Assembly: GCA_905178155.1 (NCBI GenBank)
Contig: CAJINV010000009.1
Coordinates: 2,891,373-2,955,372, forward strand
Origin: Amoebophrya sp. A120
Lineage: Eukaryota > Protista > Dinoflagellata
DNA length: 64,000 bases
Direction of reading: 5' to 3'
A model generated the notes under the pieces. It worked only from the letters and a program-made list of their open reading frames with translations, had not been told where the DNA came from and searched no databases. Position numbers and translations under genes: made by a program. Below are positions 5,110-29,100 of the stretch, one piece after another. Every line of letters starts with the position of its first letter. Within the stretch, counting starts at the first letter, position 1.

Positions 5110-8100
5110 TTAATCTGATGTATCGCCAACGAGCTTGATGCTGTTCGCGGCGGCCGCTCTATCCGTCGGGTCCAGCCGTGCCACAGCCTGTATCGTAGGG
5201 AAAAATCCCTCCTCCCCATATCGAAAAGGTGCGTCTCAGAAAATTTGCCATGCAGATTTGTGGCGACAAATCGTCTCTGTCATGCAAGGACGCAACTCCA
5301 CAGGCTCCGCCGCATTCTGCAGGCGGTTTGTGATGCTGTTGGCCCTACAGACTAGACGTCTGCCATGCTCAGCGCCTAGCCCAAGACCTCCCTACTCAGA
5401 CTTATTGTAGGCCTGCAGTCCTGTACTGCAAGACAAATCTGATTTGTGTACGCAAATCCAGCATCAGAAATTTCGTTTTGATGTGGGGAGGGGGATTTTT
5501 CATTGCAATAGCCTGCTGCGTGCCTCGCGTCCATCTGCCCGATTCCGTATGCCGGAAAAAAACTATGTCAGTGCAAGCTTTTTAGGCTGATACTAGCATG
5601 AAAAATTTACTCTGCATGACAGAGGAAACCTGCAATGAGCGTGGCTACCTACTACATAAAAACACACATCTATGAAAGGAGGACTTCGTGGCTGTCTGGC
5701 ATGACAAGCGTAATCTATTTTGCATTTTCTGCATCACAGACTTACACTCACACAGTTTTTTTCTTGCATACTCCGGGTCCCTCTTCCAATCGTCGAGCTT
5801 CACGTGAAACCTCTCTTCTTCGGACAAGAGCTGCTTCTCTTTCTACCAATTGCAAAAATGTCTGGGTCTGGAAGAATTCATGTTTGTCATGCTTGTCTGG
5901 CACGACTCTTAAGTCTGTCATGCACGTTACCCAAGAGCTCCGCTTTTCTGTGATGCAGAAGCGCAGTTTGTCATGCAGAATAGGCAACACCGGGGAGCTC
6001 AGACACTCGTCATGCTGAGCCAGCATTTGTAGCCTCATCATGAGACGCCACCCAGCATCACAAGTTTGAGTTTCCAGACCCAGACATTTTTACATTTGAT
6101 ACTTTCAGACTCGGCCCCACTACACCAGCCGCCTGCTGAGGATAGTACTTGTCACCGCCGCCTGAGGGCCAGGCTGTAGCTTCGCCTTCCCCCACCTCCT
6201 GTCGAGTGGTCGGCGAAGATACGAAATCCATGGTGCCCGTCATCTTCACGCGCCGAAGTCGTGCCACAATCGACTCCGCGTCCACAACCCCACTCTCGTT
6301 CGTGTGGGAGTTCTTGCCGTGCTTATTCTGGGTCGTGGTACGCTATCGACGTTGCAAATCAATGTGTCTGGGTCTGGAAAGTTCTTGTGAGACCCATAGT
6401 AGTACATGAGTTGTGTGAGTAACATCAACAAACCGAATCCCCTAGTACGCAGAGACGCACGAGAAAACGTGTGGGTAGTGCGTATTAGTATTACTACTAG
6501 CCTCTTGACGCGGGCGTCCCGGACGCCCGCTGGGCTAGTAGATGTAAAAATAATTCTAAAGACGGGAATGCGTTTAGAAGGTTTGGCTTGGAGTCGAGTA
6601 GAATGCGGCTAGAAGGTTGAAAAGCATAACGCTGCCTGCCCCGAGGAAGATCGTTGCCGCGCCTGCGCTTGCCCTAGCGGCCTCGCCGCTTTAACGCCTT
6701 TTGCGGTCCGGCGTCCAGGACACCGGCCCGCCGTCAGCCCTTTAGCCGCGTTGCCGCGCCTGCGCTTGCCCTAGCGGCATCGCCGCTTTAACGCCTTTTG
6801 CGGTCCGGCGTCCAGGACGCCGGCCCGCCGTCAGCCCTTTAGCCGCACGCGGCAAGCAAAGCGAAGGGGGCCGGTTGCGAAGCTTATTCTGGGGCGGCTT
6901 CGGCGGCCGGCGCAAACAAAACCCCCGCCCCTTGATGGGGATGAGCCTCACACTTCCGGGGGCTTGTTCGCGCGGTTTTGCCTCGCGCCCCCCCGCCCAT
7001 GCCATGCACCAGAAGCCGAGAGGGAGAGGCAAAAGCGTGCCCGGCCGGAACGAAAGAGGTGGCAAAAAGTGACTGCCTGGAAGCTCTTGGCCATCGCTCT
7101 TGCCCGGCTGCCCGATTGGAAAGCGATGGGCAAAAGTGATGGCCAAGAGCTTCCAGGCAGTCACTTTTTGCCACCTCTTTCGTTCCGGCCGGGCAACACT
7201 TTTGCGCGCGCGCCCCCGAAAGTGGTGGCCGCGGAGGTCTTGGCCAACACTTTTGCCCGCGCGGGGGGACAGTGACTGATGGCCGAAAATGACGGCCAGG
7301 CAGGGAGCTCTTGGCCATCACTTTTGCCCGACCGGAAGCAAGGCGATGGCCAAAAGTGATGGCCCGGGCAAGGAGCTCTTGGCCACCACTTTTGCCCGCC
7401 CGGAGCGAAAATGATGGCCAAAGAGTGAAGGTCAATGGTTGTGTGGCCACGGAGCTCCTGGCCACCATTTTTGCCCGACCGGAAATGGATGAGCAGGGAG
7501 CTCTCGGCCATCACTTTTGCCCGACCGGAAAGCGATGGCCAGAAGTGAGGGCCGAGGACTTTTGCATGCCCGGGCGAAAAGCGGCGGCAACGGAACTACT
7601 GGCCATCACTTTTGCCCGACAGGAAAGCGCTGGGCAATAATTGCCCAGGACGGAGCCCTTGGCCACCACTTTTGCCCGCCCGGAAAGTGACGGGCAAAAG
7701 TGATGGCCAAGGAGCGGTCGCGATGGATCGTTTCTCTTTGCCCGGCCGAAAAGTGATGGCCAGGGGGCTTCTGGCCATCACTTTTACCCGACCAGAAAGC
7801 GATGGCAAAAAGTGATGGCCGCGGAGTTCTTGGCCATCGCTCTTGCCCGTCCGACCGGAAAGCGATGGCCAAACTCTCTTTTGCCCGAACGAAAATCGAT
7901 GGCCGCGGAGCTCTTGGCCATCACCTTTGCCCGGCCGCGAAGCGATGGCCACTTTGACGGCCAGGGAGCTCTTGGCCATCACCTGCGCTCGGCCGAAAGG
8001 CGACGCCCAGGGAGCTCTTCGCCATCACTTTTGCCAGCGCTTGAAAATAAAGGGCTTCGCTTCTCGAAGAAAACCTGCTTCAAGCTCGAGGCCCCGCGCT

Positions 8101-11100
8101 GTCGTCAGGATACGCTTCGCGACAGTATCCTGACGATAGCAGGGGGATTCGGACTCGACAAAATGGCTCTCCCATTTTTCCGGTCCGAGTCCCCCTGCTG
8201 TCGTCGGGATACTGTCGCGAAGGGCTCGGGGGTGAGAGTGGTGCGCGCATTTGGGCGGCAAGTTGTGAGAACCACTGCCGCGCCCGAGTCCCCCTGTTGT
8301 CGTCAGGATACTGTCGCGAAGCCTTTCGCGACAGTATCCTGACGACAACAGGGGGGGCTCGAGGTTGGAAATGGTTTTCACGCTTGGGCTGCAAGTTGTG
8401 GAAACCGCTCTCAGGTCCGAGCCCCCCTGTTGTCGTCCGGATGCTGTCGCGAAGGCTTTCGCGACAGCATCCCGACGGCAGCAGGGGGATTCGGACTTGA
8501 GGTCGGTTGTCACAATTTGCCCGCCCAAAGTGATAGCCAGGGAGCTCGTGGCCAGTACTTCAGCCCGAGCGACCCACCGGAAAGCGATGGTTGGCCAGCG
8601 GGCTCTTGGCGAGGACTTTTGCCCGTACGGAAGGCGATGGCCAGGGAGCTCTCGGCCATCACTTTTGCCCGGCCGGGAAGTGAAGGCTCAGGGGCCCCTG
8701 GCCACCACTTTACCCGGCCGGAAAATGGTGGCACCAGAGGAGCTCTTGCCCACCATTTTTGCCCGGCCGGAAAGTCAAAATAGTGACCAAGGGCCCGACC
8801 GGAAAGTGATGCATGGCCCAGGAACTCCTGCCCTTGGCCATCATTTTTGCCCGGCGGGCCGGGAAGTGATGGCCAAAATTGATGGCCAGGCGGGAGCCCT
8901 TAGCCATCATTTTTACCTGCTCGGAAAGTCATGGCCAAGGGGCCCTCGGCCATGACTTATCATGTCCGAGCCAGCGGAAAGTGGTGGCCGACGAGCTCTT
9001 GGCCATCTCTTTTGCCCGACCCACCGGAAGCAAAGCGATGGCCGCCAAAAGTAGTGGCCGAGGAGCTGCTGCTGGGTGGCCATCACCTTGCATGCTTGCC
9101 CGGGCGGAAGGCCATGGATGGCCAAGGAACTCCTGGCCGCCATTTTTGCCCGGAGAGACAGGAAAGAACGGCGGCTCGGCCGGAAAGCGATGGCCCGGGG
9201 GCTCCTGGCCCTCGCTCTTGCCCGGCGGGCCGGAAAGTGATGGTCCCCATACTGCCACGGGATCCGTGGCTTTGCTTTGTTTAAGGTGCTGGCATTCTTT
9301 CACATGCTCGCCAGGGCGTGCAGGATAACATTTTGCACGACGGTACGGGGCACAAATAACGGGAACGCGTTCAATCTGTTACACGAAGCTTCTAGACGAG
9401 ACCTTCTAAGCACATTCGTTTAGAATTATTTTTCTAAGTGCCTCCTATAGATTATAGCAAAGGGGGAGGCAAAGTTCGTTTCACTATTATTATAATTATT
9501 ATCGATTCGCATGAGAAGTTCGCATAAGAAGTCGCAAAGAGGGAGGGGTATTTTTCCCTGACATGAGATATTTCAACGGCATGATGCGAAGCGTTCAGCG
9601 GTGGCGTAAAGAAAAGAGACACTTTTTTTTTGCAATGGAATTCTTATGCATACACTCGAGCGTGCGAAACTGCCAGCGGCGCTGCCTTCGCGCCTGTGCA
9701 GGCCCTGTGGCGGAGTGCTGGACCCGTTCCGAAATGAAGGCGAAATGCCTCCCCATCCCCATATCAAAATGGACATCAATGACGCGCGACGCGTCTCACT
9801 TCGTTTTGCATGCAGTAGAGCGCTGCACGTAGACCCTATCACGCCTTTCTGATGCAGGAGTCTGCTGGTGCGGGCCCTTAGCATGTTGGTAGACGTCTGC
9901 CCTGTAGGCCTTACAGCATCACAAACCGCCCGGATAAGAACGCGGCGGAGGAGTCTCTCGACTTTTCGCGTTCTTGCAAGACAGACAGGATTTTTGTTTT
10001 TCACCACAAATCGAAATCTGCTGCAACTTTTACTTTTCAGAAGGATGCGTTCTTCATAGATGCATATGGGGAGGGGGGATTTTCACTTGCAATAACCCGG
10101 CCTATGAACTGCAAAAGTATCGTACTCGTATAAATGCATTACAAATTTCCTCAGCATGAGAAAGAAAATTTGTAATGCGGATTTGCCTTAAGAAAAAAAT
10201 TTGTAATGCATGATTGCAGTACGATACTTTTGCACAGGATACGCCCGTGGTGACGACGACATAGCCGCGTGGTGGGTGATGATGATCCTTGTCAACATGG
10301 ATGCGGTTGTCCTTGTTATGAAATGCATAAATGTCTGGGTCTGGAAAATTGTGATGCTAAAATGTGCATGATGAAAACACTTCCGAATGCAGTCCGGCAT
10401 GACAACTTCCCAAAACGCTTTCTCATTCTCGTAGGCAATCCGCATGAGAAGCTGCGTTTTTGCATGACAAAAGAGGCTGCGACTTTTGTTGGTTACGCAA
10501 TACAGATTTTCTAGGTATGGAAAGCTAGCATTACAAGTTCCAACCTTCCAGAGGACCCAGACATTTTTACAATCCATACTTGTAATTCTGCAGCAAGTGT
10601 TGCGTGCGCGGACTGGTCTTGGGCGAGTGTTGAGGCGCACCGCCGGCGCTCCTGCTCGACACCGCGCCCGGCGAAGACGGGGGTGTGGCGGCGTCGTGTA
10701 GGCGATTTCTCGGAGACAGAGACGCGGAACGGGAGCGGTCTACCCGAAAGGAGTCACTGACAGCCGCGTCGTCGCCCCACAGCTTGAATATCCTAGTAAA
10801 GCAACAACGTCCCCAACTTACTACCCACAGATGTCATGCAAGAGTCTGCATATGCCTACAAAGTTTCTCCTGCGCAGCCACAACATGACAGGCAATTTCT
10901 ATCGTATGCAGATAGTATCTGGACGAGGGAGTTTGTTGTCATGCTAGAATCAGGATCATATTCATAAGCTAGTCAATTTGTCATGCGGTTTTTCAACAGC
11001 TAAACAGCATTGCACTACGAGCGGAAACATGTCATGCTCGACAGCCAGAACTTGTGGGTTTTTTGTGTAGCAGAAGATTCTTCATCTTGACAGACTAAAG

Positions 11101-14100
11101 GGAGGAGACTTTTTTTCTCACGATATTGAACCGGGTTTCATCATTAAGGAACGCCAGTCCCTTCTGGTCCAGCTTGCGCACCTCCTCTAACAACTCCGAT
11201 GTGCAAGAAAAAAACTGTGTAATAGTGTAATGTAACGCAGAACAGATGGAAGCAACACATTTACGCTCGTCATGTTGCCGGACAGTCATGCAGTCCACTT
11301 TTCTTCACTATGCGTTTATTTTCCACCACATGCTAGCCGTGCTTGACAGGCTCCGGCTCCCTCTGCCATGCACCGGAAGCAAATTTGTCATGCTGTCAGC
11401 CATCCACGTAAGTAGAGAATTACAACACTAAAATTAGTGTTTTCTTCCTGGAGAATATCGCACGAAAAAACTGTTTCACAGTGGTGATTTAGATTTTGCA
11501 AAATCTGCATCACAAGTTTTGTAATACGCGTGAAACTGAAAATCTGTCATGCGGGGTTCCTAGGGGAAAACACAGCTAGAAATCCATTGTCTTGCATGTG
11601 TGGCATGACGCACACTTCTGCGATCGATTTTCTGCATCACAAGTTCACAGTGAAACAGTTTTTTCTTGCGATAGATCATATCGGAGTTGATACTCAAACT
11701 GTTCAACAGCGGGTCCTCGTCTGGCTCTTGGGTTTCTTGTATAAAATGCAAAAGCATCGCACTCGTTGTATTGCAATCATACATTACAAATCTTTTTCTT
11801 AAGGTAGATCCGCATTACAAATTTTGTTTCTCATGCTGAGGACATCTGTGATGCATTTATACGAGTACGATACTTTTGCACAGGATATCTTGCAGCAGAA
11901 CGCCATCGCCATCCGAAGTATGCTCGTTTTGCCTCCTTAGACGACCGCTCTCTACTTCGTCCTCCTCCTCCACGCGGGACGACGAGCTGTACTTATTTCT
12001 CGTCGCGCTAGAAGAACTACCTCCCGTGGTCGGGGGCCCCCGCCCTGGTCGTGCCCCTGGTGCGTATGAACTGCAAAAGTAGTATCGTACTCCCTCGTAT
12101 AAAAAATGCATACACAAATTTCCTCAGCATGAGAAATAAAATTTGCAATGCGGATGTACCTTAGCAAAAGAATTTGTGATGCATGATTGCAATACAAGTA
12201 CGATACTTTTGCACAGGATACTGCGCCGTCGCTGGCCATCGCAGGACGACCACCCGATACCTCATGCAGCCGTGGTGATGCGCGGGAAAAGAAAGACATC
12301 GAGGTTGACGGAAAAAGCATTCCTATCCTGAGTAAAAACGTCCCCACACCAGAGTTGTCATGCAGATTTGCAATGACAGGAACATTTGTAATGCGCATCG
12401 CCAGGAGAGGCATTGTTAGTCGTGTTTTGGAATTTGTAATGCTGTAAACAGGATGAGTAGATGGATTTCTGATGCAGCTGGCCTTGCGAACCTGCACTAC
12501 ACTACGGACTGCAACTTGTGATGCGTGACCCCCAAAAGTTCTAGGTTTGTGTTGCAAAATCCCCATCTTGACTCTGGTGTCGGGATGTTTTTACTCAGAA
12601 TAACTCCGGCGGTCGTGTCCCCGCCGAGCGGTGGTTTCCCCGAAAAGACTTCGGCGCTGGCGTTTCTCGTCTTGCCACCTCGCAGCATCAAGTTGGTAAC
12701 GTTACTCCCGTTGTAGTACTATCCGCTGCAAAAGTTGTACTAGCGCACTAGTAAAGTAGACATGATGTTCTTGATCATGATCGCAGAGCAAATTTATTAA
12801 ACTTGATCTCATCGAGTGAGAAATCATATGAATGCGGTTGAGAAAGACATGATTCATATTCTTGAGTGACTGCATTCAGAGTTTTAGTTGTACGCAATGT
12901 ACTTTTCGCTGAACATCATACTTTTGCAATCCATATTATCCCGGCACTGCTAGAGGGGGACCCCAGCAGCGCAGTAGCATCAGCTCCCATCGCGACGGTA
13001 GACTGAGAAGAATAAGACTGCACGCCCGGCAACACCTCCCACACACTGTAGCGCCAGGGAGGGCCGTTGGAGGACACAAGACCCCTGCTCACCACGGCCC
13101 CGCCGACCGCAAAGAGCGGGCTTCTTTCCAAGTAGAAACTCCGCTCGTCGATTCTGTTCGAGGGCGAAAATATTCTGGACAGTCGGCCTGTGCTGGTGCC
13201 GGAAAATGAATTATCCCCCCGGTCGGGCTTCCGCAGCTGCGTGGAAAACGTCTCGCTCGTAGTCAGAAGACCTGCGCCCAACGTGGTACTCACGCCGTTA
13301 CTCAGTAAGTTATTTTGAAACTTCGCTTCGGTAAAGTTGCGCAACCTATCCTGTGCAAAAATATCGCACTCGTATAAATGCATTACAAATTTCCTCAGCA
13401 TGAGAAATAAAATTTGTAATGCAGATTTGCCTTGGAAACAAGATTTGTAATGCAGGACTTGCATTTATACGAGTACGATACTTTTGCACAGGATACAACC
13501 CCCCGCGCGATAAAACGAAGCGATGATTCCAGTATTCGAACTTTTTGTGCGACAGCTTCAGCGCCTTATTGCAAGCAAAAATCCCCCCTCCCCATAGCTG
13601 AAAGTTTGTCATGCATATTTGTGCCCACAAATCGGGTCTGTCTTGCCAGAAGGCACATTCAGGCTGCCCGCCACGTTAATACGCAGGCCATTTGTAATGC
13701 GGTAAGGCCTACAGGGTAGCCGTCTACCATGCTAGGCGCCTACGCCAAAAGGCCCCTGCCTAGGCTTAGGATCTGCGTGCCGTCTTCTACTGCAACACAG
13801 ATCTGATTTGTGTATCCAAATCCAGCATCAGAAATTTCGTTTTGATACGGGTAGGGGGGATATTTCCTTTTGATACGCCTGCACTGCACCATCTATCGCT
13901 TTCTCGACAGAAACACCACTGTCCTTTCGTCCTGGTCCTTCTACTTCATCGATCGAAGCTTCCGCTAGTATCCTGTGCAAAAATACTCGTACTAACAAAT
14001 TGGAATTGCGTTCTTTATACACATAGAAAAATCTACGTTGTGGGTGTCCAGGTGAGTTCGCTTTGCAAATCTCATTTATGCTGAGTCAATTTTAATTTCA

Positions 14101-17100
14101 ATTTCAATGTTTTTGTAAATGCGATTCACACAGCATTCACATTCTAGTACGATCCATTTGTAACGACCCATAGCCAGGCGCCCGCTCCAACTTTTTTCCG
14201 CTTGGTAAATTTCCTGCAGCTGAGCGCCGACCCGCCTCGCCTCCTGCTTCAGAGTGGCGAGCGCAGCTCCGGTTATGCATTGCAAATATGTCTGGCGTTT
14301 TGTCTGGAAACAGCACCTTGGTACAGCACAGTGAACGAAGAGAGCCAGCACTTGAGTTGTTAAATCAATTTTGAATGTTTTTGAATTTCTCATGCAAGGT
14401 GTCACGCATGCTTTTTGGACCTGGCATAATGAAGACGAGAAGACACACACCGAAGAATTTTTTGTCACTTGAATTAAGTAAAAAGTAGGAATCTTGTGAT
14501 GCGAAAGTTGACAGATCTGTGATGCATGGCTAGTAGTCGTGGCAACCCTTATTTCTGTCGTCAGCTGTAACTACCCAGTTTGTCATGCAAAACACGTCGG
14601 CACTAGAACGCGGAATACGAGCCGAGAAATTTGATGCCGTACACCAGAACGACCTGGCTCTGTCATGCAAAGCGCAGCAACACAAATCCGCTGCGTTTTT
14701 CCAGACACCGCAGCAGCTGACATAAGTATTTGCATTCGATATCGGTGCTGCGAAGCTGATCTTCGAGGGGTCCTGCGCCCGTGGTCTGTCTTCTTTCCTC
14801 TCCTGGGAAGAACTGTCGTGGAGAGGAAACAACCAGTCCGCGGCTGGTGCGCTCCTTGTCCTTGTCCTTGAACTCCTCCTCAAGCATGTTTTTTTCCGTT
14901 TCGCACTGCTTTTCCAACGTTTCCTTTTCGATCGCGAACTATCAAATGCAAATATGCTTGGGTCTGGAGAATTGCCAGGTTTGTCATGCATTTTTTGCAG
15001 GACCCATGAGGCCTGTCATGCATGACCTAGCATCGCGGATTTTTAGAGGACTTCCTGATGCGTATTCCGCATGAGAAATGCCCTCTCTGCGGAGCACAAA
15101 CTGGGCTCCTCTTGCTGTGGCATGCAATACAGATTTTTTTGGAATCCATATACAGCGTTACAAGTCGCCACTTTCCAGACCCAGACATATTTGCATTTGA
15201 TACGAACGCCCTCTCGAGTTCTCGTCTCTTCCGCAGCACGCTTCGTTCCGCTTCCTCGGCCACCTGGGCCAGCCTCCTATCAAATGCAAAAATGTCTGGG
15301 TCTGGAAAATTGGAACTTGTATTGCGTGTGCAGGATTCCAGAAAAATCTGTGTTGCATAAAAGCACCAAGAGCGCCGCGTTTTCATCATGAGAAAGCGCA
15401 GTTTGTAATGCGCAATAAGCATGAGAAAGTGTCTCAAAAATTTGTCATGCTCCAGTGCTCTTACAGGCGCAGTCACTCATGGCCATTCAGCATTACAGGT
15501 TTCCAGACGGAGACATATTTGCAATGCATACCTCCGCTCGGTGGCCGACAGCCGCTCCAAGCCCTCGACGAGTGCGTTCACAGCGCTGGTGTTCTCGTCC
15601 GTCGGATTCTGTTATCCTGTGCAAAACAAGTATCGTAGTCGTATAAATGCAAGTCTTGCATTACAAATACCAGCCATGCCCCGGCTGACGCCGGGGCGAG
15701 CGGCTGTTGTGGCGGGGCAGGACTATTTGCGGATCGGGCCACAGTGCCAGAGCTTTGCGCACGGCGTGATAGTTCGAAGGAAATACTGGCGCCGGTTTGC
15801 GCCATCTCAACCCGCTGGGCCTCCTGCGCGCTTCCCGCGCCTTCAGGCGCTATGCGCAGGGAGCAGCTGCAGCGAAGCTTGGGGGCGAAGAGAAGCCGCT
15901 CCGACATAGATGCCGAAGGAAGCAGAACGGGGGCCGCAATGCCCTTTTTTGATCACCCACCCGCCCCCGCCCTAAAAGCTTCTCGGCGGAAATCGCTGGC
16001 GCGAGAGGGTGGCGCGAGAGGGTGGCGCGAAAGGGCGGCGCGAGAGGGTAGCGCGGGAGGGTAGCGCGAAAGGGTGCGGGCCTGCGCGATGAAAAGGCCC
16101 AAACAAAATTGGCCGCGTGCCGGGCGGATTCGAGTTTTTGCAACCCTCTCGCAGACCCTCTTTTTCACCTCCTCCGAGAGGTGTTGCGAATAATCCGGCT
16201 ATACTCGCCGGCAGAGGTCGACAGAGGTGGCCGAGAGGTGGCCCAGAGGGTGCGCGAGAGGTTCGCCCTTATTCGCGCAACCTCTCGGCACCTCTGTCCA
16301 CCTCTCGCGTGCCCTCTTTTTTACCTCTCGGCCACCTCCGTGCCGCTTAGCGGCCCCAAAGGGTGACCCCTTCGGCGGGCTATACTCGCGCCACCTCTCG
16401 GCCACCCTCCCGAACTACCTCCCGCGCCACCTCTCCGCCTCTGTCGACCTCTTTTTGACCTCTTTTTGACCTCCCGGCCACCTCTCGTTTACCCTCTCTA
16501 GCCAATATTTTCGCATGAATTAACTACTATTAATGATGATTAAGGTCATTGAGGGGTCGTTGAGGGGTCTTCGACCCCCCGAAGGGGGTTCATTGACCCC
16601 CCTTGGGTACCCCTTCGTTTTTCGAGGCCCCCCGAAGGCCCCTCGAAGGCCCCCCAAAGGGGCTCCGTTGACCCCCCCCTTCGGGGGCTCATTGAACCCC
16701 CTTCGGGGGGCCTTCGGCGTAGTAAATTTCTGTTTTTCTCGAGGCACCCCTTCGGGGGGCCTTCGGGGGGCCTTCAGGGGGCCTTCGGGGGGCCTCCGAC
16801 CGACGGCCTTCGGGGGGCCTTCGGGGGGTCTTCGGGGGGCCTTCGGGGGGCCTTCGGGGGGTCTTCGGGGGGTCTCCGGGGGTCTTCGGGGGGTCTTCGG
16901 GGGGTCTTCGGGGGGCCTCGGGCGGACGCCGTCGAGCGACGCCAAGAAGTTTGGTTTGCAATGCGCGCGGGGTCTTCGTCTTTCTTTACGATGGCGCTGC
17001 GGGTCTCGCACTTGCGTGGGGCCGAAACAACGGCAAGACCCGAAACACCCACGGCGCCATGCCCTTCGGCGGGTTGTTCGGCCAAGCCAAAGGCTTTTTT

Positions 17101-20100
17101 CGTATGCGGGTGGGGCCGCTGCGGTCTCAAATGCGGGCGGCGCCGCCGTGGTTTCTTTCGTTTAGTTTTTGGTGCGGGCGGCGCCGCTTTTCTTTCGTCT
17201 GTAAGTACTCTTCCAAAGGCGGGCGGAGCCGCTTTAGTTTCAAGGCGGGCGGGGCCGCTTCGGCTCTTTCCGCCGCGCTACGCAGCCAACGCGCTTGCTT
17301 CTTTTTGCCTTTGCCCCTCCCCTTGCTTGCCCGACGCCTTGGCCATCGGGGCGGCTTTCGCCTTTCTTTGGGGCCGCCCGCGGCTTGCTTTGCTCTTCGG
17401 CTTCGGCCTCGGCCTCGGCCTCCCTCGGCACCGCCTTCGGCTTCGCGACCGCCACAATCTTGCTTCCTTCGCCCGCTTTGCGGCCGGCTCGGCCTCCTGC
17501 CCCTCCGGCACGCTTGAGGCACCACGCAACCGGAGGAGAGGGCGCCCCGCAGTTGCCAGTCGGCTCAACTACTACTACCAACCGCGAAGAGCGTCGCCAC
17601 AAAGGCCCAGGGTGGGCGCTGGAATGTGTGCGATTGGATTGGAGCGCAAGCGGTGCAGATGTTCGCTGCGCGCGTTCCCGTGGCCAACCCCACCACCTAC
17701 ATACAAACCAGCGCCTTGAGCCGCAGCAGCCGCCTACATTCCAGTGCTCTGGGCCACGCAAGAAGTGTCCAGGGCGGGCGCTGGAATGTAGGCGGCCGGA
17801 TTCATTTGCGCGTTCGGAAGCTGCGCGGCTGTTTGTTTTGCGAGTTTCCAAGGCCGCCAAGTCAGCCGCCTACACTCCAGCGCCCTTGGCCTCGCCAGAA
17901 TGAAGGACCAAGGGCGCTGGAACATAGCTGGCCGGAGGGATTTGAGCGCAAGTTGCGCAGATGTTCGCGCACTTTGCGAGCTTCCCTGCCAAAGCCAGCC
18001 GCCTACATTCCACCACCCTGGACCCTTCTGGTGTGGCCCATAGCGCTGGAACGAATGGAGGCGGCTGGCTTTGCGCGCGGGTAGCACGGATGTTCGCCTT
18101 GCGAGTGTCCAGGGCCAAGCCCGCCACCTAGGTAGGTTCCAGCGCTCACTCTGAACCACAGCAGAAGGGCCCAGGGCGCTGGAATTCGGGCGACTGGCAG
18201 GCTTTGGGCGCAAGCGGCGCAGGTGCTCTCTGTGCGAGTTTCCGTGCCCAAGGCCGCCGCCTACATTCCAACCAATCAAAGAACGCCCTGGGCCACGCCA
18301 GAATGAAGGGCCCGGAGCGCCTTCGCATAGGCGGCGGGCTGGAATTGGGCGCCACTTGCGCGGTTGTTCGCCGTGCGGGCTTCCGTGACCAAATCAAACG
18401 CCTATATTCCAGCGCCCTTGGCCTCAGCAGCAGGGCCCAGAGCGCTTCCTTGCAGGCGGGCGGCTGGATTTGAGCAGAAGCCGCGCAGCTGTTCGCTTCG
18501 CGAGTTGGCTTCCAAGGCCGGGCCAATCGCCTAGATTCCGGGCCGGCCGGCGCCAACTTTGAGCCGGATCAGAAGTGTCCAGGGCGCTGGAAATGTAGGC
18601 GGCTAGACTTCCGCGCAAGTTGCGTCGATGTCCCCTTTGCGCGTTTCCGTGGCCACACCAGCCGCCTACACGCACCCCAACGCCCTGAGCCCCACCAGAA
18701 GGGCCCAGGGCGCTAGAATGCAGGCGGCTGGATTTCAGCGCAGGTGACGCGGATGCTCGCTCTGCGAGTGTCTGTGGCCTGCCAAGCCAGCCGCCTGCAT
18801 TCATTCCAGCGCACCGAGCCACGCCAGGAGGGCGCAGGGTGTTGCAATGTACGTAGGCGGCTGGAGGGATTTGAGCGCAGGTGGCGCGCGTGTTCGCTCA
18901 CTCTGCAGTTGCCCGTGGCCAGCCCAGGCGCCTACATTCCCGCGCCCGCTTTGGGCCACGCCAGATGTTTCACGGGCGCTGGAGTGTAGGCGGCCGGGCC
19001 CGGTCACTTCAGCAAAAGTGGCGCAGATGTTCGCTTTGCGTGAGCCACACCCACCAGAGCGAAGGGTCAGCGAGCGGCGCTGGAGTGTGGCCGCCTGGGC
19101 TCAGTCACGCACTTGAGCAAAATTGGCGAAGATGTGCGCTGTGCGAGTTTCCGTGGCCAAACCAGCCGCCTACGTTCCAGCGCTCTGAGCCGCGCCAGAG
19201 GAGTCCAGCTAACGAGCGCGCTGGAGCATAGACGGCGGGATTTGGGCAAAGGTGGCCCAGATGTTTTCTGTGCCTCGGCTCGCCTGCGAGCTTCCGCGGC
19301 CGAGCCAGCTCTTTAAATTCCAGATCCCTGAGCCAGACCAAAAGGGCCGGCCCAAAGCGCTTGAAGGTAGCCGACGGACCACATTTGAGCGCACGGCGCG
19401 CGTGGGCGCAGATGTTCCCGTGGCCCAACCGGCCACGAACATTCCAAAGCCCTGAGCCTCGCCAGAAGAGTGCTGTCCCGGGTGCCGGAAGGTAGGCGGC
19501 CGCCCGGGCCGGCTTGGGAGCAAGAAGATGGCGCAGATGCTCGCGCTGCGAGGGGGTTTGAGCGCCCATGCCCAGGCCAACCGCCTGCATTCCCAGCGCT
19601 CTGAGCCACACCAGAAGGGCCCAGGGCGCTGGAATATAGGTGGCCGCGGCCGGAGTTGAGCCAGCGCAAGTGACGCAGATTTTCGCTGTGCGAGTTCCTC
19701 TGGGCCGCTTAAGTTTTTGGCACCCATCGGCGAGGCCGCCTCTGTTTCGCCTGGCTGGCAGACTGCCCCCAAACAAAATGGATGCCGGCCGGGGGCCGGC
19801 GCGACGGCTTGGTTGCGGTGTAATAGGGGCGGGCCCGCCTCGGTTCTCTGTCCAGGACGCCTCGGCCCTGCCGCAACATGCGGCGCGCTTCTCTTTGTTT
19901 GCGTTTGTTGACTGCCTGCGCGGGCCCCTCGCTCGGGGCCGCGGCTACAGTTCGTTGTTTGTGTGCGCGCCTGCTTGAGCGACGGGCGGGCCGGCCGCCC
20001 GGGCCTTGGTGGGCTTTCGGCGCCAGTGCCCGTTTGTTGTGGTATGCCCGGCCCGCCCAACAGGCGTCCTAGCGGAAGGGCGCGCGCGCGCGCCGGATTC

Positions 20101-23100
20101 ATCATGCCGGGGCGGTGCCAGATTGGGCGCTCCAAGCAAGGCCGGCGCCGGGCCTTGACAAGGTACGGAGACCCAGCAAGGCAGCTGGTTCCCGGTAGAA
20201 GTTCATTTATGGGCATCCGAGCCAGATGGCGCCAGGCCCTGGCCAAGCCTGCCAAACGGCCGGCGCCAGGCCCTAGCGGTGCTGGACGGTGCCCGGGGGC
20301 GCCAGGGGCGGCAGGCCGGCGCAAGATTCTGGGTGGCGAGGCCACTCAGCCTACGATCGGGCTAGCTGATGCCAGCCACCCGGCTCACTGATCGCGGCCG
20401 GGGTTGTGCGGCGCAGCTAGATTTATTTCGGCGAAGGATGGAAGCCTGCTAGCCGCGGCCAGATCCTTCCTGCCTGGCCAATGAGGCGGCTGCCACGCAC
20501 ATTGTGGCCGAGGCGGCGCAGAGCCTTTGCAGGGCCTACGAACGCCATATCCTGGTGGGCCGAGCCTGCTAGCCGATGCAAAGAAATCGAAAGCATTGCG
20601 CGAGGGAGGCAGTCTGGCATAGGCCTTGGGGAGGCGGAGCAAAGGCCTTGGGAAAGGTCTCGGGGCTTGCCTGCGCTCGCAAAGCCGCTCGCGCTGTCCT
20701 CGGGGACAAGCCCTGGCGGGGCCTCGGGGGCATATGGCCGCTGGGGTTTATGTTTCTTTCGAAGTCAAGTCGCCCTCTTCTTGGGGCCGTTTTTTCTAGC
20801 TGCCCACTGTCCATCAAGATAGGGTCGGCCAAACGGCCGACCCCCATCTTGTATAATAGATAGTAATTTTTCTTAAGGTAAATCAGCATGACATCCATTA
20901 TTTTTAATTTACCTATAAATACAATATTTCCTATCATGTTTCTTAACTTTCCTCTTTTGCTATAGAATACAGAGTTTTTTTTCTCATGCTGAGAAAATTT
21001 GTAATGCATTTATACGAATAGGATAGTACCTTTACAGTTCATATCTGTTTCTGCAGCTCTTCGACCTGGACGAGTTCGTTCGCTTTTTCGTGACATTTTT
21101 CCCAGGATTTTGCCCAGTTTTTCTTCTTCGTCTCGAAATCGCGCTCCAAAACCTGCAGCTCGGGATCGTTGATCATGTTGTTCGGCAAGATGGAAAACTT
21201 TTGCTCCAAGGCGGAGAAAGCTTTTTTCTGTTTTTCCTTATCAAATGTAAAAATGTCTGAGCCTAGAAGAATGCAAGTTTGTCATGCTTGTCTGGCATGA
21301 CTCTTAAACCTGTCATGCACATTACCAAAGAGCCCCACTTTTGTGTTATGCAGAAACGTAGTCTGTCATGCAGAGTAGGCAACACCTAGAAGCTCAGAAA
21401 CTTGTCATGCTGAGCCAGCACTTGTGGCTCCGCATGATACGCCACCCAGCATCACAAGTTTCCAGACCCAGACATTTTTGCATTTGATATTCCTGCAACA
21501 GACGCACCGCGGCTTCCTTTTCCAGCTGCAACCGCTGGCGTTCCGACTCGATAGAAGTACCTGTTTTCGGGTCCTCTTCTAGCAGCCCACCTGGACGATT
21601 TTCTTCTTCATCTGGGTGTTTCTTCTGCCCCCTCAGCTGCTCCTTAAGTCCCCGCATTACCTGCTCCAGCCCGGTCATCCGCGCTTTCAACTCGGACTCC
21701 TGCTCTAGCATCTTCTCCTTTTCAGCGGGCAAAGTCCACTTCTCACGGTAGATGTGAAACAACGGCGCGGAGGAAAGACTTGATGCGGCGGGGGGTGCTA
21801 GAAGTTATCAAATGTAAAAATGTCTGGGTCTGGAAGATTGCCAGCTTCGTCATGCAGGTTTTCCATGACGCGCGCGATCTGGTATGCACGGCCTAGCATG
21901 ACAGATACTGTGAGATCTCTATCATGCCTTTCCTGCATGAGAAACTGCCTCTAGGCACTTGTTAAAAAGTGGACAACTTTTGGTAATCATGCAACACAAA
22001 TTTCTTCACGATCCAAATGTAGCATGACAAGTTACACTCTTCCAGACCCAGACATTTTTACAGTTGATACCAGTACTTCCCCAACAACATCTTCCTCGCT
22101 GGTGGGCACCAACTGCAGAACGGCCCCGACCGCCCGGCGCGCCGTGTGCAGATTTCGCCTGGCTTCCTGGAATTTCTTCTTGATCTCCCCATTGCTCAAA
22201 GGGGGGTTTTTAATTATATCAGGGTTGATTGCATCGTCCAGATCTGTCGCAAGAGGAAGGAGTAGTTCCTCCCCGGCGACTACTGCGAGGAAAAATCCCC
22301 CCACCCCATATTGAAGAAGTATATTCCTAAAAATTTGCGATGCCGATTCGTGGCCACAAATCCGGCCTCTCTTGCAAGAAGGCAAATCCAAAGGCAAAGA
22401 ATCCGCCGCCTTATGGGGGTGATTTGTATTGCTGTTTCACCTACAAACATGGGCATGGCAGGCCTCTGCTATGCTAACCTCCTACAACAAAACACCCCTA
22501 CGCAGGCTGAGACTTTGCCCGTAGTGCCTCACTGCAAGACAGGGCTGATTTGTGTACTTACACAAATCCAGCAACAGAAGTTTCCGTGTCAATATGGGGA
22601 CGAGGGGGGATTTTTCACTTTGATAGCAACTACTGGCGCCTTGTGGATCAGATTTTCTTCGAGCTCCAGCACGCGCGGATCGTTGCAGTCGTGTGCGGTG
22701 CTGCCCAACAGCTCACCCATCAGCCCCCGCACGTTGACAAATAGCCCGGCCTTATTCTGGGGAAAAACGTCCCCACCCCAGAGTTGTCATGCTAAACAAA
22801 ATGCGACACACTTTGCCCCCCCCATTGTACCATCGCCGCAGATGGCTTGGCACGCAGGGCGGGTGGGTCAGGCGGACACCGAAGTGCCATCACCATCATC
22901 TCCCGGCCACTATACCCCAGAGTTGTCATGCAAATCTGCACGGCAAAAAAGTTTCTCACGAGGAGCCCCATGAGAAGCATTCCCTAGTCGTGTTTTGGAA
23001 TTTGCGATGCTATAATCGGCGTGATGTGCTAGCTCTGTGATGCTGCTGGAGCTACCTAAACAGGAATACACTACGAGGCCAAACTTGTCATGCACAACAA

Positions 23101-26100: not shown

Positions 26101-29100
26101 CAGTTGGTCGTCATGTTTCGCTGGATTTCGCATATTCATCCGAGCATTTTTATGCTCTTCCGCATTAGCTGCAAAAATGGGCAGCGAAGAGTTCAAGTTC
26201 GCGATTCTCTTGCCCGACGACGAGACCAGTGGCGGCGTCACAAGTGGCTGGATGAAAGTGGAGGTATTCGGCTCACTGAACGCAGATGTGGTCGTCATGG
26301 GCAACGGCATATCGAATGCAAAAGTGTCTGGGTCTGGAAACTTGTAATGCTGCGTTGGGAATAGTGAATGCTCTGTAATGCACAGGCAAGCATGAGAAAT
26401 ATCTGCGCTTCTTTGTGTTGCGTTTTTCGCCTGACAAACTGCGTTTTTGCATGACAGGCAAAAGGGCCTCTTCTTCCTTGGACACGCATCACAAATTTTT
26501 TGGCCATGCCAGACAAGCATGACAAACAAGGCCCACCCGAGCGTGGGGACAGGGTCCCCACGCTGGGGCCTTGTGCCCGTCCCTAGTGGCGCTAGTGGGG
26601 GAAGGGTGTTCGGCATCGGGGCGGACAGCGTCCGCCCCTCGCCTCACACCAGGCGCGCGCATAGTGGCCTAGTGCGCGAAGCGCTAGTGGGGGAAGGGTG
26701 TTCGGCATCGGGGCGGACAGCGTCCGCCCCTCGCCTCACACCAGGCGCGCGCATAGTGGCCTAGTGCGCGAAGCGCGAGTGGGGGCAGGGTGTTCGGCAT
26801 CGGGGCGGACAGCGTCCGCCCCTCGCCTCACACCAGGCGCGCGCATGGTGGCTTAGTGCGCGAAGCGCTAAAGGCAAAAGGATGAACAGGGTGCCCTACA
26901 TTTTGCAACACAAAACAAAAATGGAAGTCAAGGAAATAGGTCGGCATGGCTGCAGATAAATTCTGTAATATTGCGCCGCAATTCATTTCCCATGACGCAG
27001 GGCAATGTAAGTAAGTAAGCAGCTATCTCCTGGATCTGCGTTGTGGAGATAAGCGCTTTCCGATTTTTGCCTGGCAGCGCAAATATTGTTCCTTTCTCTG
27101 TGGAGGCAGTTGCTTTGCGTTTTTGCGCTTTTATCTTTTTCATTTCGGTGGTGATAAGTTGAAACACTATTCGCCAGCTATTTACAAGCAGGAACATAGA
27201 AAGTACGCTAAACAGTTACTCGCTCGCCTGAAGAAGCGAGCACCCGATTGATTTTCTCCGTCGCTTTTTTTTTTTTGCGCTTTTATCTTTTCCATTTTTC
27301 ATCGTGTCGCAAATATTTCCTTTGCGTGTCTTCATAAATGACATTAGCGCTTAGGCCACCTGTCGAGGTCACCTGTCCAGGTCACCTGTCAAGGTCACCT
27401 GTCAAGGTCACCTGTCAAGGTCACCTGTCAAAGTCACCTGTCAAGTTCACCTGTCGCCGGGGGTATGCCGTACCAGAACCCGGAAGTCAAGCAATGTAAA
27501 TATTAATCTCGCAATCTTCCAGACCCAGATCTTTTTGCATTTGATAGTGGTCACCGCCCACTTGTCCCGAACGCGCGATCGTTTTCAGTTCCTCTTGCAG
27601 GATATAACCTGCTCAGGTGTTACAAAAATCTCAAGCGTTACAATAGAATATGGAAATCTGTAATGCAAGAGTGCATGATCTAGCCAACTCTTATAGGATT
27701 GCGCATGACAAGTTCCGGAGCCCCGAACCCCAATACAATCTGGCGACAATTGTATTGCAAAAAGTGGAACGCTGTGCGAGTCTGTCATGCTCATCATGCA
27801 ACACACATTCCAAATTCTATTCGTAACGTTTGAGATTGTAACGTTTGAGCAGGTCATACAGCAGCCGACTTGCTTCGAAGTCGGAAGTGATGTCTTCCGC
27901 CTGGTCCTTGAGCCGCTTTCTTGTGTCCACCCGCTCAGCTTGTTGCTTCATCACGTCCACGCTGCTATCAAGCACCTGTTTCAAGTCGTTCAGGCGCTTT
28001 TGCCGCATTTGATCTTTTATGCATTGCCAAAGTATCGTATTAGTCTGTTGAATCGCATCACAAATTAGCCCAGCATGAGAAATGGAATTTGTCATGCTGA
28101 TTCATTCACCTTGGGATGAAAATTTGTGATGCATGATTGCGATTTTTACTACGGCTACGATACTTTTGCACAGGATATTTTTCCATTCCTCGTCTCGCTT
28201 CAAATTCAGCTTATGAACTGCAAAAGTATCGTACTCGTATAAATGCATTACAAATTTTCTCAGCATGAGAAATAAAACTTGTAATGCAGACTTGCCTTGG
28301 AAACAAGATTTGCAATGCAAGACTTGCATTAGCATTTGTACGAGTACGATACTTACTTTTGCACAGGATACAGCTCCATATTGTGCAAGTCTTGCTTGAA
28401 CTGATTCTTCAGATTGTGCAGCTGGTGCTTCAAATCGAGTGCAAATATGTCTGGTTTGTAATGCTGATCTGCCATGGCCCTTAAATCTGTACTGCGTGGC
28501 CACAAACAGCCTCTCTCGCCTGTCATGCAAAAACGCAGATTCTCATGCAGAACAATACGCAGCACAGAAGCACGACAAAACGTGTCATGCTTGGCGGCGC
28601 ATTAGATAGAGTGCGTTTTTTATTGACTGACCTGCATCACAAGTTTCCAGACCCAGACATATTTGCAATGCATACTTCAAATCTTCGTTCTCGATCTGCC
28701 GTTTCCGCAAGTTACTCAGCGCGATCTCCTATCAACTGTAAAATGTCTGGGTCTGGAAGGATGCGAACTTGTCATGCAGATTTTACATGGCCCGTGACGT
28801 CTGTGATCATGTATTCCCTGGAATCACAGATTTTCTGAGTGCTTCCTGATGCCTATTTCGCATGACAAATGGCCTCCCCGCGTAGCAGAAATTAAACTCC
28901 TCTTCTGCTGGTCATGCAATACAGATTTTTCTAGAATCCAAAGTTAGCATCACAAGTTCCAACTTTCCAGACCCAGACATTTTTGCAGTTGATATCTCCT
29001 TCAAGTACTCCTTCCTTTCCTTCCGGAGCTTCTCGATTTCCCTGGAGTAGCCAGCATCTACTAGCGCCTGTGTGTTATTATCGCGGCCGCGAGAACGGTG

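What the first reader, a model, noticed from the sequence alone, without database searches (positions are those of the whole stretch)
15613..21043. Nested intron: two Helitron-like elements expand a ~150-bp introner to 5.4 kb
Seen: the two halves of a family B element, with perfect TSD tctgt, enclose element 2 (minus; TC...hairpin-CTGG). Element 2 is interrupted at an A|T, 9 nt from its 5' end, by element 3 (plus; TT...hairpin-CTTG). The exons still join in frame. All four Helitron-like inserts in the window lie inside introners. Inference: introners are safe havens for other elements, and end recognition works over more than 5 kb of structured GC-rich RNA.
Basis: partly seen in the sequence, partly recalled or inferred. 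Interest (0 to 1): 0.75.

Follow-up and report, generated by a model that had tools for sequence, protein, structure and literature searches.

The report
Nested transposons inside a spliced introner
In a marine parasite whose genes are full of transposon-made introns, two likely rolling-circle transposons sit one inside the other within such an intron and stretch it about 35-fold to 5.4 kb, yet assembled transcripts still lack it exactly; this is ordinary nesting, useful mainly as a natural test of this organism's unexplained splicing.

Summary
The structure is real. The gene is Amoebophrya sp. A120 protein P0001. A TAT…ATA introner (15613-21043, perfect 5-bp TSD) holds element 2 (minus, 865 bp), which is interrupted by element 3 (plus, 4,332 bp). 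Two spliced contigs from one sample have exactly the length expected if 5,436 nt are removed, and the public protein joins the same exons.

Corrections: empty-site spacing (7 of 7 sister copies) puts element 2's 5' end at 20866, so it starts TT, not TC, and is interrupted 15 nt in, not 9. The host halves total 234 bp, including an unnoticed 79-bp AT-rich insert.

The elements work like non-autonomous Helitrons (3' hairpin, A|T target, no TSD) but miss the canonical TC start, and element 3 ends CTTG.

'Safe haven' holds only as tolerance. Introners are at least 71% of non-coding DNA here, so 3 of 3 host events in introners has P≈0.36.

Side result: 11 of 11 informative junctions fit one splice register, 1 nt before TAT and 4 nt after ATA. 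No read bridging the inner junctions and no intact element 2 were seen.

The parts
15608..15612 (.). Left copy of the 5-bp target-site duplication
15613..15669 (-). Left half (57 bp) of the family-B introner; 3' arm of the intron on the coding (minus) strand
15670..16519 (-). Element 2, 3' part (850 bp, GC 0.64): ends in an 8-bp hairpin and CTGG; holds 11-13-bp tandem units and inverted repeats
16520..20851 (+). Element 3 (4,332 bp, GC 0.65): starts TT after an A, ends in a 9-bp hairpin and CTTG before a T; 11-bp tandem array and long degenerate internal repeats; no Pfam hit in 7 long frames tested; likely low-copy repeat
20852..20866 (-). Element 2, 5' terminus (15 bp, starts TT); boundary set by empty-site spacing of sister copies
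20867..21043 (-). Right half (177 bp) of the family-B introner; 5' arm of the intron
20896..20974 (.). Extra 79-bp AT-rich segment inside the right half, absent from 12 other family-B copies; origin unexplained
21044..21048 (.). Right copy of the target-site duplication
15609..21044 (-). Most likely intron as spliced (5,436 nt, ends AT..AG), by the 1-nt/4-nt register inferred from other junctions of the gene
15531..15608 (-). Downstream exon (77 nt net) of the host gene P0001
21045..21238 (-). Upstream exon (190 nt net) of the host gene P0001
26527..27506 (-). Element 4 (980 bp): TT start, hairpin-CTTG end, at A|T in a family-A introner (26310-27546); flanks rejoin like a sister copy
6497..9480 (-). 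Element 1 (about 3 kb; 5' end not fixed): hairpin-CTAG end, inside degenerate introner 6344-9652 of the same gene

Best explanation
A small TAT…ATA introner in a gene of Amoebophrya sp. A120 carries two nested inserts that are likely non-autonomous Helitron-type elements, and assembled transcripts lack the whole 5.4-kb intron exactly, probably because the splice signals lie only in the introner's outer arms. Likely order of events (inferred): (1) a ~155-bp family-B TIR element inserted into an exon with a 5-bp duplication and became an intron; (2) element 2 inserted at an A|T in its AT-rich middle without duplication; (3) element 3 inserted at an A|T in element 2's AT-rich 5' tip; a 79-bp AT-rich segment was added at an unknown time. 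Splicing likely cuts at a fixed register, 1 nt before the opening TAT and 4 nt after the closing ATA, whatever the terminal dinucleotides; the two arms are predicted to pair and loop out the interior. The inserts would persist because they are removed from the mRNA, as in any intron, with no sign that they target introners.
For: Shown: perfect TSD. Spliced contigs: X5 contig 10 has 147 nt between window 14934 and 21044, and X3 contig 9 has 337 nt between 14934 and 21490; both equal the model built from the TSD list before any tuning. Public protein P0001 matches the spliced model at 1,755 of 1,760 residues without gaps and has no hit in the intron interior. Hairpin-CTDR|T ends at 4 loci against 0.55 expected. 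Restored host spacing for element 2 (7 of 7 copies) and element 4. Element 3's start resembles element 2's 5' tip (5 of 1,920 A|TT sites score as high). X1 contigs on element 3 have depth 64-119 with base differences, against 39-45 on unique DNA. One register fits 11 of 11 informative imperfect-TSD junctions. Predicted: arms pair at -28.2 kcal/mol against -13.2±3.3 for shuffles; the full-length fold keeps the outer stem, keeps it with the interior shuffled (34 pairs) and loses it with the 3' arm shuffled (0 pairs; one run each). A 3-nt exon is kept in P0001, which favours recognition across introns.
Against: No bridging DNA contig or read over the inner junctions was displayed, and X1 differs from the window at several places inside the inserts. 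The junction is read from contig lengths, not displayed letters. Both RNA contigs come from one sample, which is not shown to carry this expansion at this locus, and P0001 may rest on the same RNA. The 5' TC is absent in elements 2, 3 and 4, and CTTG is not CTRR. No RepHel partner and no intact element 2 were seen. The 5' arm pairs more strongly with 10 of 11 other family-B 3' arms in the window (up to -67) than with its own, so pairing strength alone cannot choose the partner. Folding 5.4 kb by minimum energy is unreliable. The register is inferred from a gene model at protein level.
Confidence: 0.75

Rival explanations
1. Splicing is exact, but the two ends are recognised separately across the short flanking exons (exon definition) or by proteins binding each TAT/ATA arm; pairing of the arms is incidental and intron length is irrelevant for that reason.
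For: Flanking exons are 77 and 190 nt, median 94 nt in this gene. This copy's arms are among the weaker pairs (10th weakest of 41 at 40 nt), and several spliced introns pair more weakly still. Better-pairing arms elsewhere in the transcript cause no skipping in the two contigs.
Against: A 3-nt exon is retained. The outer stem is predicted at full length. The elements are spliced in both orientations, as symmetric arms would allow.
Confidence: 0.3
2. Helitron-like elements prefer introners as targets, or survive in them better than in intergenic DNA (strong 'safe haven').
For: 4 of 4 loci, 3 of 3 independent events, lie in introners.
Against: Introners are at least 0.71 of non-coding DNA in the window; P(3 of 3)=0.36, P(4 of 4)=0.25. 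The share is a rough lower bound from an automatic pick.
Confidence: 0.1
3. Elements 2 and 3 are not nested rolling-circle elements but a head-to-head pair, one composite unit, or unclassified repeats with chance hairpins.
For: No uninterrupted element 2 seen. The four inserts share no alignable sequence. TC is missing and element 3's left boundary has no empty site to confirm it.
Against: Hairpin-CTDR|T hits fall only at insert ends. Elements 2 and 4 restore their hosts at A|T. The 15-nt piece resembles element 3's own 5' end.
Confidence: 0.12
4. The inserts are an assembly artefact, or are absent in the cells whose RNA was sequenced, so the long intron is never spliced.
For: No bridging record displayed; X1 letters differ from the window inside the inserts; RNA and DNA runs are different samples.
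Against: Junctions follow A|T logic and restore host spacing, which misassembly would not be expected to do. X1 has depth in all 30 bins. X3 exon pieces match the window at 2,109 of 2,109 displayed bases, and X3 holds low-depth contigs on element 3 with the same variant letters as X1 at 16894 and 19777.
Confidence: 0.08

Closest known systems
Amoebophrya A120 introner elements (Farhat et al. 2021, PMC7789003; abstract, sections 5, 10, 11, 16, 34, passages and supplement text search seen)
   Same: Arm begins TAT + 7 nt + AAA; direct repeat of 3-5 nt; non-canonical ends; proposed hairpin; U1 snRNA not detected in the organism. The gene model already spans this intron (P0001), and Table 1 lists introns up to 35,152 bp.
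   Different: The paper's intron analysis covered 40-1,000 bp only. [quoted passage not shown] 'Helitron' does not occur in its main text or supplement text.
Canonical Helitrons (HLE1), non-autonomous (definitions from passages of PMC4067079 and PMC11417382)
   Same: GC-rich hairpin just before the 3' end, A|T target, no TSD, no terminal inverted repeat, no coding capacity detected.
   Different: 5' TT instead of TC; elements 3 and 4 end CTTG; no RepHel partner shown.
HELPO2 Helitrons of Pleurotus ostreatus (passages of PMC4289320)
   Same: CTTG 3' end, A|T insertion and subterminal hairpin.
   Different: HELPO families are described with T[C/G] 5' ends and Rep/helicase ORFs; relatedness was not tested.
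Secondary TE insertion into existing introns (passages of PMC9860276); Helitron self-insertion (passages of PMC5148889)
   Same: TE insertion inside intron interiors is treated as a common background that introner surveys filter out; nested Helitrons are proposed in Fusarium.
   Different: Here the host intron is itself an introner with non-canonical ends and grows about 35-fold.
Euglenid non-conventional introns (passages of review PMC11282704)
   Same: TIR-based structure joining the ends, TSD-like repeats, lengths up to several thousand nt.
   Different: Unrelated lineage; described as released as circles by an unknown mechanism.

Membership tests
A120 introner element | Arm motif TAT + 7 nt + at least 3 A | tested here: met
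   Left end at 15613 (definition); the right arm is more degenerate
A120 introner element | Direct repeat of 3-5 nt at the boundaries | tested here: met
   5-bp TCTGT on both sides
A120 introner element | Complementary 5' and 3' ends | tested here: met
   Duplex -28.2 vs -13.2±3.3 kcal/mol for 300 shuffles; weak for its family
A120 introner element | Repeated family | tested here: met
   12 other family-B copies aligned from the window
A120 introner element | Removed from the transcript | tested here: met
   Contig lengths 147 and 337 nt equal the model; P0001
Canonical Helitron (HLE1) | 5' TC | tested here: not met
   Elements 2, 3, 4 start TT; element 1's start not fixed
Canonical Helitron (HLE1) | 3' CTRR | tested here: inconclusive
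   Element 2 CTGG and element 1 CTAG meet it; elements 3 and 4 end CTTG, as reported for HELPO2
Canonical Helitron (HLE1) | 16-20-nt palindrome about 11 bp from the 3' end | tested here: met
   20-nt and 22-nt hairpins ending 8 nt from the end in elements 2 and 3
Canonical Helitron (HLE1) | Insertion between A and T without TSD | tested here: met
   Elements 2 and 4 by comparison with sister host copies; element 3 is flanked by A and T but has no empty site; a 1-2 nt A duplication cannot be told apart
Canonical Helitron (HLE1) | RepHel gene, or shared ends with an autonomous partner | not testable with these tools
Canonical Helitron (HLE1) | Dispersed copies with shared ends | tested here: inconclusive
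   X1 depth and variants point to extra copies; their ends were not seen
HLE2 (Helentron/Helitron2) | Subterminal inverted repeat of 11 nt or more | tested here: not met
   Longest exact inverted repeats 5, 7 and 4 nt for elements 2, 3, 4
HLE2 (Helentron/Helitron2) | Insertion between T and T | tested here: not met
   A|T at elements 2, 3, 4

The most novel reading that the evidence does not exclude
A120 removes its introners by a U1-independent ruler built on the transposon's own terminal repeats: cut 1 nt before TAT and 4 nt after ATA on a paired stem, blind to terminal dinucleotides and to intron length. Every introner is then a portable, expandable intron, and an undescribed TT…CTTG/CTRR Helitron lineage of Syndiniales lives inside them.
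Probability: 0.35. Interest if true: 0.68.

Novelty: new member of a known kind. Interest (0 to 1): 0.4.

Why it matters
How Amoebophrya removes tens of thousands of non-canonical introns without a detected U1 snRNA is open (PMC7789003, sections 10 and 16). This locus is a natural perturbation: a 35-fold expansion with weakly pairing arms still appears to be removed exactly, so models that need a short local hairpin are disfavoured. The fixed 1-nt/4-nt register gives a sharp prediction that existing RNA reads can test. The nesting itself is ordinary transposon biology, and the public gene model already contains the intron.

Tried and rejected

No RNA holder was listed as such by the run search. 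X3 and X5 proved to be spliced when laid. Raw RNA run X9 gave 43 partly fitting reads and no exon coverage, which says nothing about this locus.

A close-up view of read support at the inner junctions was not obtained, so these junctions rest on sequence logic.

A 24-nt motif of element 2 gave 0 matches in JGI metagenome contigs; this is weak, since the strain need not be there. Earlier scan notes gave nothing in 3 look-ups. Pfam gave no hit for 7 insert frames or for P0001.

One search used element 3 and 4 coordinates that were off by one base; one search corrects them. Searches used the earlier values, which shifts lengths by 1 bp. The 7 of 7 gap matches include intervals adjusted after seeing the contig gaps; only the 14934-21490, 14934-21044, 21801-22071 and 24403-26016 matches were untuned.
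Full report
Setting. The window is packed with short elements that begin TAT, end ATA and carry 5-bp target-site duplications (41 in the host gene and 47 more picked automatically outside it). One exon (21490-21801, minus) matched a single protein at 100%: P0001, 1,924 aa, labelled Amoebophrya sp. A120. The arm motif matches the published A120 introner motif (PMC7789003 section 11). P0001 has no Pfam hit.

Outer element. 15613-21043 has a perfect TSD, and both ends hit family-B copies. Alignment with 12 other copies shows that the halves are collinear with the family but that the right half has an extra 79-bp AT-rich segment. In 7 of 7 copies examined the insertion site has 9 nt between two conserved blocks. 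The halves are then 57 and 177 bp, about 155 bp without the AT-rich segment.

Inner elements. A scan of both strands for a GC-rich hairpin followed by CTDR|T gave 6 hits at 4 loci (two loci hit on both strands), against a mean of 0.55 in 20 shuffles. All four are ends of GC-rich inserts. Element 2 (minus) is 15670-16519 plus 20852-20866, 865 bp, starting TT and ending CTGG. Element 3 (plus) is 16520-20851, 4,332 bp, starting TT and ending CTTG. Its first 15 nt resemble element 2's 5' tip better than all but 5 of 1,920 A|TT sites, itself included, which weakly supports both boundaries. Element 4 (26527-27506) has the same TT…CTTG design and restores a family-A host like a sister copy. The four inserts share no alignable sequence. 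Seven of 31 long frames overlapping the region were scanned and gave no Pfam hit. In run X1, unique DNA has contig depth 39-45, while contigs on element 3 have 64-119 with base differences, and one on element 2 has 350. This suggests further copies, though such depths are not copy numbers.

Splicing. In one search, X5 contig 10 has 147 nt between window 14934 and 21044, and X3 contig 9 has 337 nt between 14934 and 21490. The model built from the TSD list gave 147 and 337 before any tuning. After adjusting other, degenerate introns, 7 of 7 gaps matched and one frame stayed open. P0001 aligns to the full model without gaps at 1,755 of 1,760 residues, also across the 3.3-kb and 1.2-kb introns that hold elements 1 and 4. 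RNA depth over most of element 3 is zero or near zero. Limits: the junction is read from lengths; X3 and X5 are one sample; P0001 may rest on the same RNA; no record bridging the inner DNA junctions was displayed; and the RNA sample is shown to match the exons (2,109 of 2,109 displayed bases) and to hold some element-3 sequence, but not to carry the expansion at this locus.

Splice register. Where the two TSD copies differ, P0001 reveals which copy each base came from. Of 16 such introns, 11 were informative. Only one offset fits all 11: the intron starts 1 nt before TAT and ends 4 nt after ATA. Under it, position +1 and the last four positions are mixed, and 41 introns show 31 different end pairs with only 1 GT-AG; the invariant TAT is partly by construction. 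This fits the published lack of a dinucleotide signature but not the statement that sites are variable relative to the hairpin (PMC7789003 section 10). For the long intron it gives 15609-21044, AT..AG. This is an inference from one gene model.

Mechanism. The arms pair better than shuffles (-28.2 vs -13.2±3.3) but weakly for the family. A full-length fold keeps the outer stem, keeps it with the interior shuffled and loses it with the 3' arm shuffled (one run each), so the predicted stem does not depend on the inserts folding on themselves. A retained 3-nt exon favours recognition across introns. Against a purely thermodynamic model, the 5' arm pairs better with 10 of 11 other family-B 3' arms than with its own; first-come pairing during transcription would reconcile this (inference). 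Exon definition remains a rival, since the flanking exons are 77 and 190 nt.

Safe haven. The four inserts are three independent host events. Introners make up at least 0.71 of non-coding DNA in the window, giving P=0.36 for 3 of 3. No preference is shown. All three events fall in one gene, whose introners are 0.33 of the non-coding DNA (P≈0.04, noticed after the fact); this is unexplained.

Comparison with what is known. The host meets the A120 introner tests. The inserts work like non-autonomous canonical Helitrons but fail the 5' TC test, so I file them as Helitron-like only (definitions: passages of PMC4067079 and PMC11417382; CTTG precedent: passages of PMC4289320). Secondary TE insertion in introns is treated as common background in introner surveys (passages of PMC9860276); nested Helitrons are proposed in Fusarium (passages of PMC5148889). 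A120's annotation lists introns up to 35 kb, but the RNA-validated intron analysis covered 40-1,000 bp. I found no report of Helitrons inside Amoebophrya introners: searches (listings only), 0 occurrences in PMC7789003's main text and supplement text, and PMC12130899's passages assign A120 introners to retrotransposons and TIR elements. Supplementary figures, the datasets of PMC12130899 and Roy et al. 2023 (seen only in reference lists) were not seen and may bear on this.

Verdict. A real, apparently well-spliced nested intron made of known kinds of parts, with corrected boundaries and no evidence for targeting. Its value lies in constraining an open splicing mechanism. Interest 0.4.

Noticed in passing
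window 5191-30445 (host gene P0001, 41 introns): One splice register (1 nt before TAT, 4 nt after ATA) fits 11 of 11 informative imperfect-TSD junctions.
   Followed up: partly
window 5191-30445: The coding-strand 5' TAT is intact in 41 of 41 introners, while the 3' ATA positions deviate in a few (39, 40 and 38 of 41 intact), hinting at stronger constraint on the 5' end.
   Followed up: no
window 11200-11680: An introner (11456-11673) appears nested inside another introner; removing both as one intron fits the contig gap and P0001.
   Followed up: partly
window 10095-10102: A 3-nt exon between two introners is kept in P0001.
   Followed up: partly
window 6546-6582 and 9398-9435: Element 1 holds an inner inverted-repeat pair of about 35 bp around its GC-rich repeat body, suggesting a further TIR or foldback element nested in it; a 97-bp tandem pair lies at 6652-6846.
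   Followed up: no
window 6344-27546: All hairpin-CTDR|T inserts of the window fall in one gene (P≈0.04 post hoc), although they share no sequence.
   Followed up: partly
window 20896-20974: 79-bp AT-rich segment in the introner's right half, with a short ACA repeat at its edges and no copy among the aligned family members.
   Followed up: no
window 15985-16076: 13-bp tandem unit in element 2 has very high summed depth in X1 (34,804 at 16011), pointing to an abundant satellite-like repeat.
   Followed up: no
window 26589-26870 and 27353-27455: Element 4 carries a 92-bp tandem (3.1 copies, 97%) and a 13-bp tandem (7.9 copies).
   Followed up: no
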